Shown piece after piece: positions 9,160-47,742 of a stretch of DNA of 54,299 nt; the stretch's first letter is position 1; the number at the start of each line of letters is the position of its first letter. Both the position numbers and the translations under genes were made by a program. This DNA is from an uncultured bacterium (GTDB taxonomy: Bacteria; Verrucomicrobiota; Kiritimatiellia; RFP12; UBA1067): assembly GCA_902788415.1 (NCBI GenBank), contig CADAKF010000014.1, positions 1 through 54,299 on the forward strand, given 5' to 3'. Under the pieces are notes generated by a model. The model ran no database searches. It worked only from the letters and a program-made list of their open reading frames with translations, and was not told the origin of the DNA.

Positions 9160-9636
9160 ATGGCAAAGAAGGTCAAGGATCCGCGTCCGAGCTGGGACGA
9201 ATACTTCATGGACATCGCGGCGGTCGTCGCGAAAAGATCCAATTGCTCGCGTCGCTCGGTCGGCGCCGTGATCGAACGCAACCACCACATTCTCTCCGCT
9301 GGCTACAACGGCACTCCGAAGGGCGTGAAGAACTGCTTCGAGGGTGGCTGTCCGCGTTGTGCCGGGAAGGTGAAGAGCGGCACACATCTCGACGAGTGCC
9401 TCTGCACGCACGCCGAGCAGAACGCGATTTGCCAGGCCGCGTGCTACGGGTTGCCGATCGACGGCTCAACCATTTATGTCACAATCTCGCCGTGCCTTAC
9501 CTGTGCGAAGCTGATTATCAACGCGGGCATCAAGGAGGTCGTCTACGGCGGCGACTACGCCTTTCTCGACACGGTCAAGAAGATGTTCAAGGCGGCCGGC
9601 GTAAGACACCGGAAGTACAGAAGTTTGAAGGTTTGA
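9160..9636 (+). CDS. dCMP deaminase (ComEB-type)
   Basis: 'SWDEYFM', 'HAEQNA' and 'PCLTCAKLI' zinc-binding deaminase motifs. The stop lies inside the octamer array. Confidence 0.85.
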   Translation: MAKKVKDPRPSWDEYFMDIAAVVAKRSNCSRRSVGAVIERNHHILSAGYNGTPKGVKNCFEGGCPRCAGKVKSGTHLDECLCTHAEQNAICQAACYGLPIDGSTIYVTISPCLTCAKLIINAGIKEVVYGGDYAFLDTVKKMFKAAGVRHRKYRSLKV

Positions 9637-9706
9637 AAGTTTGAGAGTTTGAAAGTTTGAGAGTTTGAAAGTTTGAAGGTTTGAAAGTTTGAGAGTTTGA
9701 AAGTTC
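9623..9706 (+). repeat. 8-bp tandem array GTTTGARR x10.5
   Basis: Read directly. Spans the cdd stop and the cdd-tpiA spacer. Confidence 0.95.
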
Positions 9707-43824: not shown

Positions 43825-46800
43825 ATGACGCAGATTCCAAAAACAGAAGACTTTCTCCTCAAGTGGCGCGGCGACACGCTGACCGTGACACTGAAGCTCG
43901 ACGCGCCGCGCAAGGGTCGCGCCGCATTTCGCACCAACATCGGGCACGCGTCGATCCGCCGCCGCGAGATCATCGATGAGACCGAGAAGGGCCTGACGCC
44001 GCTCGCGAAGGCGTGGACGGACATTCCGCTCAAGGAAGTGTCGCCGGGGCTTTTCAGGGCGGACATCCGCCTGGATGAAGTCGGCGTCTTCTCCGGCAAG
44101 GCCTGTTTCTTTCCCGAGGGGTCGCATGTGCCCGAGTGGCCCGAGGGCCGCAACACGCACATCAAGGTCGAGAGCGGCGAGACACGCGCGGGTAACTCGA
44201 TCTACTGCGTCTTTCCGCGGCAGTTCGGCTCGTTTCGCGAGGTCATCCGGCGGCTCCCGCTCATCATGGACACGATGGGCTTCCGGATCGTCCAGACGCT
44301 GCCGCCGTTCCCCGTGCCGACGACCTACGCGGTGATGGGCGAATACGGCTGTCCGTTCGCGGCGACCGACTTCCTTTCCGTCGATCCGGCCATGGCCGAG
44401 TTCGACGAGCGTGCGACGCCGCTTGACCAGTTCAAGGAGCTGATCGGCGCCGTTCACGCGCGGAACGGGCTCATGCTGATCGACCTCCCCGCAAACCACA
44501 CGGGCTGGGCGTCGACGCTGCAAACGCATCATCCGGAGTGGTTTCACCGTCGGGACGACGGCAGGTTCGTGAGTCCCGGCGCCTGGGGCGTCACCTGGGC
44601 GGATCTCGTCGAGCTCGACTATTCGAATCCCGAACTGCGGACCTACATGGCGGACGTCTTCCTCTTCTGGTGCCGCCTTGGCGTGGACGGCTTCCGGTGC
44701 GACGCCGGCTACATGATTTCCGCCGAGACATGGGAGTACATTGTCGCCAAGGTGCGCGAGGAGTATCCCGACACGATCTTCATGCTCGAGGGCCTCGGCG
44801 GCAGCCTCGAGACGACGGACCGCCTGCTCGCCGAATCCAATCTTGACTGGGCCTATTCCGAGGTCTTCCAGACCTACGACCGCGGACAGTTCGAGTGGTA
44901 TCTGCCGAATGCGATTGCGCGCGCGGAAAAATACGGCGCGCTCGTCCACTTTGCCGAGACGCACGATAACGACCGTCTCGCGAAGGGCGGCGAGACCTAT
45001 GCGAAGCTGCGCGTCCAGCTTGCGGCGCTCCTTTCGTGGCAGGGCGCCTGGGGCATCGCCAATGGCGTCGAGTGGTTCTGCACGGAAAAGATCGATGTGC
45101 ATGGCAAGAACGGGCTCAATTGGGGTGCGGACCGGAATATGGTCGGACTCATCGCCAGGCTCAACGGGATCCTACGCACGCATCCGTCATTCACCGGACC
45201 TGGACGGCTCGAAGTCGTCACGCGCGGCGACGGCAACACACTCGCCGTTGTCCGCCATGCCGACAACATCTGCGATTCGCTGCTCGTTCTCGCCAATCTC
45301 GACTGCTGCCATCCTGCGCAAATCGACTGGGCGCGTCCAAAATACGATCATTCAGAGACATTTGACGTCCTGAGCGGACGCAAGGTCTGCGCTGCCGGTC
45401 CTGTCGAGCTCGGGCCGGGAGAGGTCCTTTGCTTGCGCACGGCGGAAAGTCCAGACGCCCGCGCAGTCCGACCGGAGATTCCGAAGCCGGCCCGAGAGCC
45501 GCTTTTCCACATCGTCATGCCGCGCGATGCAAAACGCGATGTCGTCGTTCCGGAAGGGCAGCTGGTCGAAGTGTCTGCACCGACCCGTTTCCGCGTGCGG
45601 CTCGTCGATCCCGAGACCGGCAAGACGGTCCGCGTTCGGCGTTCGGACGATGCCAACCGCGCCATCTTCGACGCGCCACACTACCACGGCGATGGCGGGC
45701 GGTGTCGCGCCCTGCACCTGGACGTGGCCATCTATCGGGACGGTCGGGCCGAGCAGATGCGCTCGCGCTTTCTTGTGCCGCCGCCGGCGCGCAAGGCGAA
45801 GATGCGACTGTCTCTCTCCGGCGAGGAGGTCCGTTGCGCACCGAACGGCCGGACGGTCCTCTCCAACGGCGCAGGCGCCGCGGCGCAGGTGCGCGTCGGC
45901 TGGGGCGAGATCCGCTCGCAGTACGACGCCTTCCTCGCGGCAAACCCGAATCCGTCCGTGCCATCCGACCGCCTGAACCTCTGGGCGCGCACACGCTGCT
46001 GGTTGCAACGCGAGGGTTATACGCGCGAGCTGGACAAGAAGTGTGTGACGCGCTTCACGGCCGATCCGGCGGGACGTTTCGCTCGCTGGGAGTTCGCGGT
46101 TCCCTGCGGCATGGGCAAGGAGACAGCCTTTGTCTTCACCCTGTCTCTCGCGGAAAAGGCGAACGCGGCGACGCTTGCGGTCGAACGTGTCGCCGCAGTG
46201 GCGCGCGACGTCGGCGACCAGGTGCGTCTCGTGTTTCGTCCCGACATCGAGTGGCGCAGCTTCCACGCGACAACCAAGGCCTACCGTGGACCCGACTCGC
46301 TCTTTCCGAAGAGCTCCGTGCCGACGACCGGCGGATTTGCCTTCTCTCCCTACGGCGAGACGTTCACCATGTCCGTCGATGGCGGCGAATATCACCACGA
46401 GCCGCAATGGTGTTACAACGTCGGACATCCCGAGGAGGCGGCGCGCGGCCAAGACGGCTCGGGCGACCTCTTTTCGCCCGGATGGATCTCGGCAGACCTC
46501 AAGGTCGGCGAGACCTGCAAGATTGTCGCCTCTCTTGGTGAATCCCCGTCTCCCACGTCTTCCGTCTCAAGTTCTAAAACGCCTCCCGCGCAGGACTCTC
46601 GACGAGAGACGAAAGACGTGATCGGTTTTGCCGATTCACTTCGCCGCTCGCTTGAGCTCTACATTGTCCGCCGCGATGACCTGAAGACCGTCATCGCGGG
46701 CTATCCCTGGTTCCTTGACTGGGGACGCGACACGTTTATCTTCATGCGGGGCATGATCGCCGCCGGGATGACGGACGACGCGCTCAAGATCTTGCAGGCA

Positions 46801-47742
46801 TTTGCCGCGTTCGAGGAGAACGGGACACTTCCGAACATCATCTACGGCAAGACCGCCGGCAACCGCGACACGACTGACGCGCAGCTCTGGTTCGTCCGCT
46901 GCGTACAAGAAATGTTTGAAAGTTTGAACGTTTCAAGGTTTGAAGGTTCGGGGGATAAACTCTCAAACTCTCAAACCCTCAAACATTCAAACCTTTTCAA
47001 AACCTGCGAATCAATTGTCGACAACTACATCAAGGGGACTCCGAACGGAATCCACATGGATCCTGAGTCTGGCCTCGTCTGGTCGCCGTCGCATTTCACC
47101 TGGATGGACACGAACTATCCGGCCTGCACGCCGCGCGTCGGCTACCCCGTCGAAATCCAGGCGCTCTGGATCAGTGCGCTCAGGTTCCTTGGCCGCGACG
47201 AACTTGCGGCAAAGGCGCAGGTCTCGCTCGAAAGGCTCTTCAAGTGGGAGTTTGGCTATCGCGACTGCCTGGCGGCGCCGCACGGAGAGCCGGCAGCACA
47301 GGCGATGCCGGAGGATACGATCCGTCCGAACCAGCTCTTCCTCATCACGTTGGGCGTCCTAAAAGACAAGTCGATCCTGCGCGCGACGGAAGAGCTGCTC
47401 GTGCCGGGCGGTGTCCGCTCCCTGAACGCGCTGCATCCGCTTTACCGCGGCATTTATGCGGGCGACGAGAATACGGCGAGAAAACCCGCCTATCACAACG
47501 GCACGGTCTGGGCGTGGCCGTTTCCGCTCTATGCGGAGGCGCTTGTCGCGGCCGGGGCCTGCACGAAGGACGTCGCGCTCTCGCTGCTCGCCGGTGCGGT
47601 CGAAAACCTGAACACGGGCTGCCTCTGTCATTTGAGCGAAAACGCTGACGGCGATGCGCCGCACGCGCAGAAGGGTTGCACGGCCCAGGCCTGGAGCGAC
47701 TCGGAGCTTCTACGCGTCTGGTTGAAGCTCGGTGGCAAGTAA
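43825..47742 (+). CDS. 1305-aa fusion: GH13 alpha-amylase-family catalytic domain + amylo-alpha-1,6-glucosidase (GDE C-terminal) domain
   Basis: GH13 regions 'DLPANH', 'GFRCDAGYM', 'FMLEGLGG', 'FAETHDN'. C-half 'GYPWFLDWGRDTFI' and 'WMDT' are typical of glycogen debranching enzymes. Confidence 0.8.
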   Translation: MTQIPKTEDFLLKWRGDTLTVTLKLDAPRKGRAAFRTNIGHASIRRREIIDETEKGLTPLAKAWTDIPLKEVSPGLFRADIRLDEVGVFSGKACFFPEGSHVPEWPEGRNTHIKVESGETRAGNSIYCVFPRQFGSFREVIRRLPLIMDTMGFRIVQTLPPFPVPTTYAVMGEYGCPFAATDFLSVDPAMAEFDERATPLDQFKELIGAVHARNGLMLIDLPANHTGWASTLQTHHPEWFHRRDDGRFVSPGAWGVTWADLVELDYSNPELRTYMADVFLFWCRLGVDGFRCDAGYMISAETWEYIVAKVREEYPDTIFMLEGLGGSLETTDRLLAESNLDWAYSEVFQTYDRGQFEWYLPNAIARAEKYGALVHFAETHDNDRLAKGGETYAKLRVQLAALLSWQGAWGIANGVEWFCTEKIDVHGKNGLNWGADRNMVGLIARLNGILRTHPSFTGPGRLEVVTRGDGNTLAVVRHADNICDSLLVLANLDCCHPAQIDWARPKYDHSETFDVLSGRKVCAAGPVELGPGEVLCLRTAESPDARAVRPEIPKPAREPLFHIVMPRDAKRDVVVPEGQLVEVSAPTRFRVRLVDPETGKTVRVRRSDDANRAIFDAPHYHGDGGRCRALHLDVAIYRDGRAEQMRSRFLVPPPARKAKMRLSLSGEEVRCAPNGRTVLSNGAGAAAQVRVGWGEIRSQYDAFLAANPNPSVPSDRLNLWARTRCWLQREGYTRELDKKCVTRFTADPAGRFARWEFAVPCGMGKETAFVFTLSLAEKANAATLAVERVAAVARDVGDQVRLVFRPDIEWRSFHATTKAYRGPDSLFPKSSVPTTGGFAFSPYGETFTMSVDGGEYHHEPQWCYNVGHPEEAARGQDGSGDLFSPGWISADLKVGETCKIVASLGESPSPTSSVSSSKTPPAQDSRRETKDVIGFADSLRRSLELYIVRRDDLKTVIAGYPWFLDWGRDTFIFMRGMIAAGMTDDALKILQAFAAFEENGTLPNIIYGKTAGNRDTTDAQLWFVRCVQEMFESLNVSRFEGSGDKLSNSQTLKHSNLFKTCESIVDNYIKGTPNGIHMDPESGLVWSPSHFTWMDTNYPACTPRVGYPVEIQALWISALRFLGRDELAAKAQVSLERLFKWEFGYRDCLAAPHGEPAAQAMPEDTIRPNQLFLITLGVLKDKSILRATEELLVPGGVRSLNALHPLYRGIYAGDENTARKPAYHNGTVWAWPFPLYAEALVAAGACTKDVALSLLAGAVENLNTGCLCHLSENADGDAPHAQKGCTAQAWSDSELLRVWLKLGGK
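46545..46620. repeat. In-frame hairpin module of the CGTCTYC/GRGACG family in the GDE gene
   Basis: cacgtcttccgtctc (46554-46568) pairs 14/15 with gagacgaaagacgtg (46606-46620). Encodes 'SPSPTSSVSSSKTPPAQDSRRETKDV'. Confidence 0.8.
46914..47004. repeat. In-frame inverted repeat of GTTTGARR octamers in the GDE gene
   Basis: Left arm gtttgaaa gtttgaac gtttcaag gtttgaag. Right arm is the complement (ctcaaac units). Encodes 'FESLNVSRFEGSGDKLSNSQTLKHSNLFKT'. Confidence 0.9.

What the first reader, a model, noticed from the sequence alone, without database searches (positions are those of the whole stretch)
46914..47004. A 91-bp octamer-array hairpin translated in-frame inside the glycogen debranching enzyme
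Four GTTTGAAN units, a short loop, then about five complementary units (NNCTCAAAC) are read through as FESLNVSRFEGSGDKLSNSQTLKHSNLFKT. The flanking sequence (..LWFVRCVQEM / CESIVDNYIKG..) looks like native GDE sequence. This is a hairpin-forming simple-sequence insertion that preserves the frame, giving a second element class behaving like the SGKDSASPL module.
Basis: partly seen in the sequence, partly recalled or inferred. Interest (0 to 1): 0.62.

Follow-up and report, generated by a model that had tools for sequence, protein, structure and literature searches.

The report
In-frame octamer-array hairpin in debranching enzyme
An 85-base hairpin made of mirror-image runs of an 8-base repeat has replaced a surface loop of a glycogen-debranching enzyme in a cattle-gut Kiritimatiellae bacterium and is read through as protein; it is a gene-less copy of a dispersed repeat family that, in sister species, encloses a small four-helix-bundle gene.

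Summary
Window 46914-46998 holds four GTTTGAAN units, a short loop and about five complementary units. It folds at -31.7 kcal/mol (z -3.7) and lies in frame in an intact 1305-aa GH13 + GDE_N + GDE_C gene.

It is not an assembly artefact. Contigs from 8 DNA runs of 8 studies carry it with no insertions or deletions, and two metatranscriptome contigs span it unspliced.

Forty-odd congeners show that the normal loop is 11-16 residues. Here that loop has been replaced by 29 repeat-derived residues, a net gain of about 15.

The one unit that would read GTT-TGA carries C at 46934 (GTT-TCA). This keeps the frame open at the cost of a stem pair.

The unit family has about 27 loci in this genome and is nearly absent from 108 of 116 congeners. 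In two congeners, inverted GTTTGARN arrays flank a PF05635 (23S-rRNA-intervening-sequence protein) gene. Across the genus, 19 of 30 such genes have inverted tandem-repeat arms, against 0 of 553 control genes.

My best reading is a gene-less foldback of this cassette family, tolerated as a passenger at the far tip of a helix pair. How it disperses is unknown, and there is no target-site duplication.

The same loop holds different repeat families in other species, including the sister species.

Novelty is moderate: a new variant of known in-frame palindromic repeats.

The parts
43825..47742 (+). Host gene: 1305-aa GH13 (alpha-amylase) + GDE_N + GDE_C glycogen-debranching-type enzyme. It is intact and full length relative to its orthologues.
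   Evidence: Orthologues in 41 of 41 relatives and in 111 of 117 genus genomes.
46914..46998 (+). Repeat-derived stretch (85 nt; residues M1030-F1058) that replaces the native loop. It is a foldback of inverted GTTTGARN octamer arrays.
   Evidence: Boundaries come from comparison with the sister species G053: shared prefix ...gaa at and shared suffix aaa acc tgc gaa tc. Fold, repeats.
46914..46953 (+). Sense arm: GTTTGAAA, GTTTGAAC, GTTTCAAG, GTTTGAAG, GTTCGGGG. Read as FESLNVSRFEGSG.
46933..46935 (+). Codon TCA in the one unit whose phase would read GTT-TGA. The C at 46934 replaces the consensus G. It removes an in-frame stop and creates a C.C mismatch with the partner unit CCCTCAAAC.
   Evidence: Read. 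The same stop-avoiding change (GTT-CGA) is seen in the two other in-frame sense arms of this genome, at C19:767-801 and C33:1591-1622.
46954..46958 (+). Apical loop (GAUAA/AUAAA) of the predicted hairpin.
46959..46998 (+). Antisense arm: 4 NYTCAAAC units plus a degenerate CTTTTC. Read as KLSNSQTLKHSNLF. This is the same stop-free reading found in at least 5 other genes.
46548..46622 (+). A second, unrelated in-frame inverted pair in the same gene, in the GDE_N/GDE_C linker. It is made of the module GTCTYYC-GTCTYYC-GTCTMAAGTYCT and its complement, and reads ESPSPTSSVSSSKTPPAQDSRRETKDV.
   Evidence: 46 copies of the module in the genome. The fold is weak, z -1.1.
9621..9705 (+). Solo array of the same family: 10.6 GTTTGARN units that fill an intergenic spacer just upstream of a start codon.

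Best explanation
The stretch is a gene-less foldback copy of a dispersed repeat family specific to this lineage. The family consists of inverted arrays of the octamer GTTTGARN. In congeners, its gene-bearing form is a cassette of the 23S-rRNA-intervening-sequence type: array, then a PF05635 four-helix-bundle gene, then the inverted array.

In this species a foldback of that family came to occupy, and replaced, the short variable loop at the far tip of a helix-loop-helix in the GDE_C (alpha/alpha)6 barrel. That tip lies opposite the conserved loops.

The copy survives for two reasons. The site tolerates extra residues. And the copy is stop-free: the antisense arm has no stops in any phase, and the one sense-arm unit in the dangerous phase carries C instead of G (TCA rather than TGA).

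The stretch is transcribed within the mRNA. By inference it is translated as a disordered loop of about 29 residues. It is most likely a neutral or slightly costly passenger rather than a functional module.

Shown here: the anatomy, frame preservation, family membership by unit, the link to the cargo gene in congeners, absence from relatives, fixation in the species, and presence in RNA.

Inferred: translation, the structural position, and neutrality. How the family disperses (transposition, templated replacement, or array growth plus strand switching) is not known.
For: Family and distribution:
- There are 32 arms at about 27 loci with unrelated flanks in the 1.9-Mb genome.
- Only 8 of 116 congeners have any array of 4 or more units.

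Link to the cargo gene:
- In G062 (L074) and G072 (L061), inverted GTTTGA(R/A)N arrays flank 129-aa and 134-aa genes. These match PF05635 at 1.4e-36 and 1.1e-21, and TIGR02436.
- 19 of 30 PF05635 loci in the genus, and 10 of 27 across the phylum, have inverted flanks scoring 40 or more, built of tandem 6-9-mers. None of 553 ordinary genes do.
- Two such cassettes lie in this genome itself.

Recent origin and stability:
- GDE loops in more than 40 congeners are 11-16 aa in most. The sister species G053 (support 99/91) lacks the octamers.
- Identical sequence without indels is found in contigs of 8 DNA runs from 8 studies.
- RNA contigs of X25 and X27 span it with no joint.

Frame preservation:
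- The stop-avoiding substitution is seen in all three in-frame sense arms.
- All in-frame solo arms have the TCAAAC strand as the coding strand.

Structure (AF2 model, pLDDT 65, pTM 0.71):
- The insert lies between helices 161-175 and 190-212, with pLDDT below 50 at 182-194.
- Both helices abut invariant loops at their other ends.

Literature: rRNA intervening sequences are stem-loops bordered by complementary sequences. They carry an S23p (PF05635) ORF and were proposed to be mobile (PMC4990558).
Against: - No cargo-bearing GTTTGARN cassette is present in this genome, which is 83% complete. The derivation of hairpin from cassette therefore rests on congeners.
- Hairpins of the family in this genome share arms but not loop sequences. 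A simple master-copy MITE model does not predict this.
- There is no target-site duplication at this site or at the Nif3-like gene site, where 11 of 11 relatives are empty.
- No mobilising enzyme has been identified.
- The two arms use different unit variants (GAA type and GAG type), so they are not a fresh perfect palindrome.
- Translation has not been observed directly.
- The structural model has only moderate confidence, and I could not measure distances to catalytic residues.
Confidence: 0.7

Rival explanations
1. Local origin. A stop-free antisense array (NYTCAAAC) first arose or landed in the loop. The opposite arm was then generated in place by strand-switch (quasi-palindrome) replication and slippage. 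On this reading the hairpin never moved as a unit.
For: - Most loci of the family are solo arrays, not hairpins.
- Hairpins of the family do not share loop sequences.
- Unit numbers differ widely between loci, from 3 to 10.
- Composite arrays of different unit families lie side by side at C9:22399, C55:2734 and C33:8909.
- No target-site duplication is present.
Against: - A newly copied sense arm of 3 or more units would at once create an in-frame TGA in an otherwise conserved gene.
- The arms differ systematically (GAA against GAG units) rather than being complementary unit by unit.
- There is no unit-number variation in 8 independent metagenomes.
- The same inverted architecture surrounds PF05635 genes genus-wide.
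Confidence: 0.17
2. Selected function. The mRNA hairpin would act as a regulatory site, either an RNase III target like the stems of rRNA intervening sequences or a ribosome pause between two halves of the barrel. Alternatively, the extra loop would serve the enzyme itself.
For: - The fold is significantly more stable than shuffles.
- It is fixed and invariant in 8 metagenomes.
- In one RNA run the contigs end at 46909 and restart at 46955, at the arms.
- Intervening-sequence stems are RNase III substrates (PMC4990558).
Against: - It is absent from the sister species and from almost the whole genus. The same loop carries unrelated sequences elsewhere.
- The stop-avoiding change is not compensated in the partner unit, so the stem is not being maintained.
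- The antisense strand folds better than the mRNA strand, -36.2 against about -32 kcal/mol.
- Contig breaks at repeated 31-mers are expected from assembly alone, and two other RNA contigs span the hairpin.
Confidence: 0.08
3. Assembly or binning artefact. A repeat would have been stitched into a GDE gene by the assembler.
For: Short repeated k-mers attract many foreign short contigs to the arms. This shows as depth spikes at 46912-46989.
Against: Single long contigs from independent assemblies cross the whole region with 0-2 differences and no gaps. Examples are the 6,629-nt contig in X9, the 46,122-nt contig in X8 and the 6,593-nt contig in X12. RNA contigs do the same.
Confidence: 0.01

Closest known systems
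Rickettsia palindromic elements (RPE) and intragenic REP elements of Opitutus terrae
   Same: All are short, dispersed, hairpin-forming repeats inserted in frame in conserved protein genes. They are read through as extra surface peptide and tolerated without loss of the host gene.
   Different: Here the arms are tandem arrays of an 8-nt unit rather than a unique palindrome. The copies share units but not an overall sequence or loop. There is no GTAG-type head, and no link to a RAYT has been shown.
ORF-bearing 23S rRNA intervening sequences (Coxiella burnetii, Leptospira; PMC4990558)
   Same: The family's gene-bearing form has the same layout: complementary arms forming a long stem around a PF05635/S23p four-helix-bundle ORF. 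It sits inside a transcribed region and is regarded as selfish and possibly mobile.
   Different: This copy has no ORF. It lies in a protein-coding frame, not in rRNA. It stays in the transcript in two RNA contigs. Cutting by RNase III is untested.
Dispersed tandem heptamer and octamer repeats: GGGAATC in Xanthomonas and Nostoc (PMC4692102); 4x heptamer and paired 4x octamer sites in Geobacter metallireducens (PMC2700814)
   Same: These are genome-wide arrays of 7-8-nt units, preferring about 4 units and often occurring as convergent (inverted) pairs. Some lie inside genes (Geobacter).
   Different: Those arrays were interpreted as G-quadruplex formers or regulator-binding sites, and were reported as under-represented in coding regions. 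In this genome about 40% of arrays lie in open frames, and the link to PF05635 cargo is explicit.
Slipped-strand simple-sequence repeats / VNTRs
   Same: Both have head-to-tail units, and unit number differs between loci.
   Different: No copy-number polymorphism is seen at this locus in 8 metagenomes. The same unit occurs at about 27 unrelated loci, and the arrangement is inverted.
MITEs and eukaryotic Foldback elements
   Same: Both are non-autonomous inverted-repeat elements without their own gene. Foldback arms are also built of short tandem repeats.
   Different: There are no target-site duplications, no related transposase, and no conserved termini.

Membership tests
GDE-type glycogen debranching enzyme (host gene) | GDE_C (PF06202) and GDE_N (PF12439) domains over the curated cut-off | tested here: met
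   220.6 bits (cut-off 21) and 72.9 bits (cut-off 27). Weak sequence matches to solved eukaryotic GDE structures.
In-frame palindromic repeat (RPE-like behaviour) | Dispersed multi-copy family in the same genome | tested here: met
   About 27 loci and 32 arms.
In-frame palindromic repeat (RPE-like behaviour) | Forms a hairpin and is inserted in frame in a conserved gene that remains intact | tested here: met
In-frame palindromic repeat (RPE-like behaviour) | Sequence homology to the RPE families of Rickettsia | not tested
   No RPE sequence was compared. The lineage and unit structure differ, so only 'works like' is claimed.
REP/REPIN-RAYT system | Imperfect palindrome with a conserved GTAG-type head, flanking or associated with a Y1 (RAYT) transposase gene | tested here: not met
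   The unit has no GTAG head. The genome has 3-4 weak Y1_Tnp matches, on C141, C77, C96 and C63. None of these contigs carries a GTTTGARN array.
MITE | Terminal inverted repeats with target-site duplication | tested here: not met
   There is no duplication at the GDE junctions. There is none at the Nif3-like gene junctions either, where 11 of 11 relatives are empty.
IVS-type PF05635 cassette (gene-less derivative) | Inverted arms built of tandem 6-9-nt units | tested here: met
   The same architecture is seen at 19 of 30 genus loci, against 0 of 553 controls.
IVS-type PF05635 cassette (gene-less derivative) | PF05635 gene between the arms | tested here: not met
   Only 5-9 nt lie between the arms here. 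Cargo with the same unit is present in G062 and G072. This locus is therefore at most a derivative, not a full member.
IVS-type PF05635 cassette (gene-less derivative) | Stem cleaved by RNase III in the transcript | not testable with these tools
   RNA contigs are ambiguous: two span the hairpin, and one run breaks at the arms.
Slipped-strand SSR / VNTR | Unit-number polymorphism among strains | tested here: not met
   No indels in contigs of 8 runs from 8 studies. Contigs can hide rare variants.

The most novel reading that the evidence does not exclude
The array foldbacks may not be ordinary insertions. They may instead be written over existing sequence at preferred sites by a templated replacement process.

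Observations that point this way:
- The same GDE loop is occupied by at least five different repeat families in different congeners.
- The sister species G053 carries, between the very same nucleotide boundaries, a different dispersed module. That module has 46 copies in this genome and also sits 400 nt upstream in this same gene.
- In each case the native loop is gone rather than displaced, and there is no target duplication.

If true, PF05635 (Avd-like) proteins and their cognate arrays would define a site-renewing genetic system. It would remodel transcribed loops, spacers and rRNA helices.
Probability: 0.12. Interest if true: 0.8.

Novelty: new variant of a known kind. Interest (0 to 1): 0.45.

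Why it matters
This is a clean, checkable case in which a structured repeat sits inside a conserved enzyme and the frame is kept open by a single identifiable base. It ties the puzzling 7-9-nt tandem arrays of this lineage to the equally puzzling four-helix-bundle cassettes of the rRNA intervening-sequence type.

Annotators should expect low-complexity loops such as SNSQTLK, FESLKV and DQGSGIR in real proteins of these genomes, and should not treat them as errors.

The recurrence of different families in one loop gives a natural experiment on where such elements can live. It may also bear on how they are placed.

Tried and rejected
- **PDDEXK_3 / GxxExxY cargo** (an earlier scan note): no match in this genome.
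- **Rfam:** only sub-threshold miRNA-like hairpin matches, best 24 bits against a cut-off of 67.5.
- **Raw-read runs X21-X23:** no reads of this organism, so minor-allele unit variation could not be assessed.
- **Target-site duplications:** none at the GDE or Nif3-like junctions.
- **G009 as a relic or proto-form.** G009's loop (RFEGMGNGDKKL) resembles the centre of the hairpin (RFEGSGDKL). However, G009 is not sister to this genome in the GDE tree, so the resemblance is unexplained or convergent.
- **Intron- or intein-like excision:** no joints in RNA or DNA.
- **Weakened hairpin in coding sequence.** I asked whether the coding-region hairpin is much weaker than intergenic ones. It lies at the weak end (-0.41 kcal/mol per nt; range -0.38 to -0.81), but it is not an outlier.
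- **Literature:** searches for Kiritimatiellae repeats, and for S23p combined with tandem repeats, found nothing specific.
- **Y1 transposase and reverse-transcriptase genes:** both exist in the genome, but none lies next to these arrays or to PF05635 genes.
Full report
**1. Observation**

- Four octamers come first: GTTTGAAA, GTTTGAAC, GTTTCAAG and GTTTGAAG, followed by a degenerate GTTCGGGG.
- A loop of about 5 nt follows.
- The complementary units come next: TCTCAAAC, TCTCAAAC, CCTCAAAC and ATTCAAAC, then a degenerate CTTTTCAAAAC.

The repeat finder reports 39-nt arms that are 77% complementary and 9 nt apart. As RNA the region folds at -31.7 kcal/mol, against -20.7 +/- 3.0 for 200 dinucleotide shuffles (z -3.69, none as good). 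The two-unit pattern occurs 16 times in the window against 0.16 expected.

The stretch is in frame in ORF 43825-47742 (1305 aa). That ORF carries Alpha-amylase, GDE_N and GDE_C domains.

**2. It is real, fixed and transcribed**

Single contigs from eight public DNA runs of eight different studies cross the whole region with 0-2 substitutions and no insertion or deletion. These are cattle gut and rumen metagenomes from 2017-2025. They include contigs of 6.6 kb and 46 kb. This excludes an assembly artefact. It also shows no unit-number variation at the level that contigs can reveal.

Two metatranscriptome contigs (X25 46606-47020; X27 46778-47046) span the hairpin without a joint. In a third run the contigs stop at 46909 and restart at 46955. 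That break is what repeated 31-mers do to an assembler. It cannot be read as RNA cleavage. Three raw-read runs held no reads of the organism.

**3. Comparison with orthologues**

The gene is present in every relative searched (41 of 41; 111 of 117 genomes of the genus).

Between the invariant RCVQE and TCESIV blocks, most congeners have 11-16 residues, for example LDGKIGANFAPLK or AEALGVDVTVLK. That is 84-99 nt between my markers, against 138 nt here.

A maximum-likelihood tree of the flanking protein sequence places this genome as sister to G053 (support 99/91).

Nucleotide comparison with G053 fixes the boundaries. The two share ...caR gaa at on the left and aaa acc tgc gaa tc on the right. 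Everything between them (46914-46998, 85 nt) is repeat here, and nothing recognisable of a native loop remains. The event is therefore a replacement with a net gain of about 15 residues, not a clean 30-residue insertion.

**4. How the frame stays open**

The period is 8 nt, so successive units pass through all three codon phases. In one phase GTTTGA reads GTT-TGA. Any sense-oriented arm of three or more consensus units must therefore contain a stop.

In this arm the only unit with a changed core is the third one, GTTTCAAG. It is exactly the unit in the dangerous phase: gtt tca at 46930-46935, with C at 46934. Its partner in the other arm (CCCTCAAAC) is not compensated. The change costs a base pair, and the fold leaves that position open.

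The two other in-frame sense arms of this family in the genome show the same thing, with GTT-CGA in the dangerous phase. They lie in a Nif3-like gene (C19:767-801) and in dnaG (C33:1591-1622).

The complementary orientation NYTCAAAC has no stops in any phase. All in-frame solo arrays of the family use that strand as the coding strand, giving peptides such as SNSQTLKLSNSQTLK or FKPSNLQTF.

An intergenic hairpin of the family (C68:6307) already contains a GTTTCAAA unit. The stop-free variant may therefore have existed before arrival rather than arising afterwards.

**5. The family**

The 1.9-Mb draft genome (147 contigs, 83% complete) holds 32 arms of three or more GTTTGA-type units at about 27 loci with unrelated flanks. 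These comprise:
- solo arrays filling spacers just upstream of start codons (for example window 9621-9705, C98 and C55);
- an intergenic tight hairpin (C68);
- three in-frame inverted pairs (this one, C19 and C33).

More broadly, Tandem Repeats Finder gives about 300 arrays of period 7-9 in the genome. By a crude test, 114 of 285 testable arrays lie in an open frame with coding-like sequence on both sides. That figure is approximate.

Arrays of four or more GTTTGARN units occur in only 8 of the 116 other species of the genus, usually at one or two loci. The family has therefore expanded in this lineage.

**6. Link to a gene-bearing cassette**

- In G062 (L074), a run of GTTTGARN-type units is followed by a 129-aa ORF and then about 13 NYTCAAAC units.
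- In G072 (L061), GTTTGAAT arrays and their complement enclose a 134-aa ORF.
- Both ORFs match PF05635 (23S rRNA-intervening sequence protein; 1.4e-36 and 1.1e-21) and TIGR02436 (four helix bundle protein).
- This genome has two such genes between inverted arrays of other units. C47:183-494 lies between GGGGTTC-type arrays and their complement. C36:18698-18985 lies between AATAATCG arrays and their complement.
- Of 30 PF05635 loci sampled across the genus, 19 have an inverted-repeat score of 40 or more between their flanks. Almost all of these are built of tandem 6-9-mers with the reverse-complement unit downstream.
- The same test on 553 ordinary genes of this genome gives none at 40 or more.
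- A sample across the phylum gives 10 of 27.

After I had found this, the scan's notebook showed that other agents had reported the same cassette architecture in many phyla. One of those reports concerned GTTTGAGAG arms. A later check there recorded no enzyme, no target duplication and no observed movement. Those notes are leads, not evidence. The counts above are my own.

In print, rRNA intervening sequences are described as stem-loops bordered by complementary sequences, carrying an S23p ORF, cut out by RNase III and possibly mobile (PMC4990558). PF05635 is related to the Avd protein of diversity-generating retroelements (PMC10053308).

Inverted pairs of tandem heptamer arrays without a gene have been described in Xanthomonas (PMC4692102). 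Intragenic 4x heptamers and paired 4x octamers have been described in Geobacter metallireducens (PMC2700814).

**7. Where it sits in the protein**

I built an AlphaFold2 model of residues 859-1305 from 19 aligned sequences (mean pLDDT 65, pTM 0.71).
- It places the insert between a helix ending ...RCVQEMFES (fragment 161-175) and a helix beginning ...TLKHSNLFKTCESIV (190-212). Confidence is low at 182-194.
- The first helix begins at the invariant NRDTTDA loop, and the second ends at the invariant GTPNGI loop.
- By inference, the insert lies at the far tip of a helix pair, on the face opposite the conserved loops.

I could not measure distances. Sequence matches to solved eukaryotic GDE structures stop at this very helix and resume after a longer variable segment. 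This agrees with a length-tolerant position.

**8. A hot spot**

The same loop holds other repeat-derived sequences in other species:
- a GGTTCAAN/TTGAACNN hairpin in G132;
- direct GTGGAARA arrays in G005, G109, G091 and G106;
- a long unique palindrome in G112;
- a non-repeat QLSFDF insert in one clade.

The sister species G053 carries, between the same boundaries, the module GTCTCC-CGTCTTC-CGTCTCAAGTCCT. That module has 46 copies in this genome. It also forms a second in-frame inverted pair 400 nt upstream in this same gene (46548-46622). That pair's fold is not significant (z -1.1).

In the Nif3-like gene, the 45-residue GTTTGARN hairpin is absent from all 11 relatives examined. It again stands in place of a short variable loop, without a duplication.

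**9. Interpretation**

The evidence best fits a gene-less foldback of an IVS-type cassette family that occupies a permissive loop and is kept only because it is stop-free.

I found no sign that the hairpin itself is under selection:
- it is absent from the sister species;
- the mismatch is uncompensated;
- the antisense strand folds better than the mRNA strand (-36.2 against about -32 kcal/mol).

The dispersal mechanism remains open. Hairpins of the family share units but not loops, the arms use different unit variants, and there are no duplications. A local origin by array growth and strand switching therefore cannot be excluded. Nor can a templated replacement process. Y1 transposase-like and reverse-transcriptase genes exist in the genome but are not adjacent to these elements.

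**10. Verdict**

This is a new variant of a known kind: in-frame palindromic repeats combined with dispersed tandem-array repeats. Interest is moderate. The most interesting open points are the recurrent and varied occupation of one loop and the link to PF05635 cassettes.

Noticed in passing
window 46548-46622: A second in-frame inverted pair lies in the same gene, in the GDE_N/GDE_C linker. It is built from the module GTCTYYC-GTCTYYC-GTCTMAAGTYCT, which has 46 copies in the genome. The region is no longer than in the orthologues, so it looks overwritten rather than inserted. The fold is not significant (z -1.1).
   Followed up: partly
L027 (G053), the GDE loop homologous to window 46914-46998: The sister species carries the GTCTYYC...GTCTCAAGTCCT module between the same nucleotide boundaries where this genome has the GTTTGAAN hairpin. 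Two different dispersed repeats therefore occupy one site in sister species.
   Followed up: partly
L037 (G132), L020 (G005), L025 (G109), L038 (G112): the same GDE loop: Other congeners carry other in-frame repeats in this loop: a GGTTCAAN/TTGAACNN hairpin, direct GTGGAARA arrays, and a long unique palindrome (cccggcgtgacctcacgccg...cggcgtgaggtcacgccggg). The loop is a recurrent landing or remodelling site.
   Followed up: partly
window 9621-9705: 10.6 GTTTGARN units fill the whole spacer between a gene end and the start codon of a triosephosphate-isomerase-like gene (MSRKKIIAGNWKMN).
   Followed up: no
genome contig C47:100-580 and C36:18400-19090 (outside the window): Two PF05635 four-helix-bundle genes lie between inverted arrays: GGGGTTC/GGGATTC with GAACCCC, and AATAATCG with CGATTATT. 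The upstream arm on C36 is itself a higher-order repeat of (AATAATCG)3-4 plus aaacgggggaagtgagaa.
   Followed up: partly
genome contig C64:5440-6830 and C19:52841-53059 (outside the window): Inverted arrays (GAGAAGGG with CCTCTCAC, and AATAATCG with its complement) lie in frame on either side of native coding segments of a flavoprotein and an amidohydrolase-like gene. The arms are therefore not always adjacent.
   Followed up: no
genome contigs C19:672-801, C33:1493-1622, C30:2369-2531 (outside the window): The same octamer family sits in frame in a Nif3-like gene (45 extra residues, absent in 11 of 11 relatives), in dnaG (arms either side of an acidic linker) and in a MurE-like ligase. The ligase also carries a DQGSGIG heptamer array.
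   Followed up: partly
window 46909 / 46955 in RNA run X26: Metatranscriptome contigs end and restart exactly at the hairpin arms, while two other runs span it. This is probably an assembly effect of repeated k-mers, but RNA cleavage is not excluded.
   Followed up: no
L010 (G009), the same GDE loop: The loop reads LGERFEGMGNGDKKLLL, which resembles the centre of this hairpin (SRFEGSGDKL) at both nucleotide and protein level. Yet G009 is not sister to this genome in the GDE tree. The resemblance is unexplained.
   Followed up: partly
genome contigs C109, C114, C88 (reverse transcriptases) and C141, C77, C96 (Y1_Tnp-like): There are three RVT_1 genes and three to four weak Y1-transposase-like genes in a 1.9-Mb genome that is dense in repeats. 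None lies next to the arrays examined.
   Followed up: no
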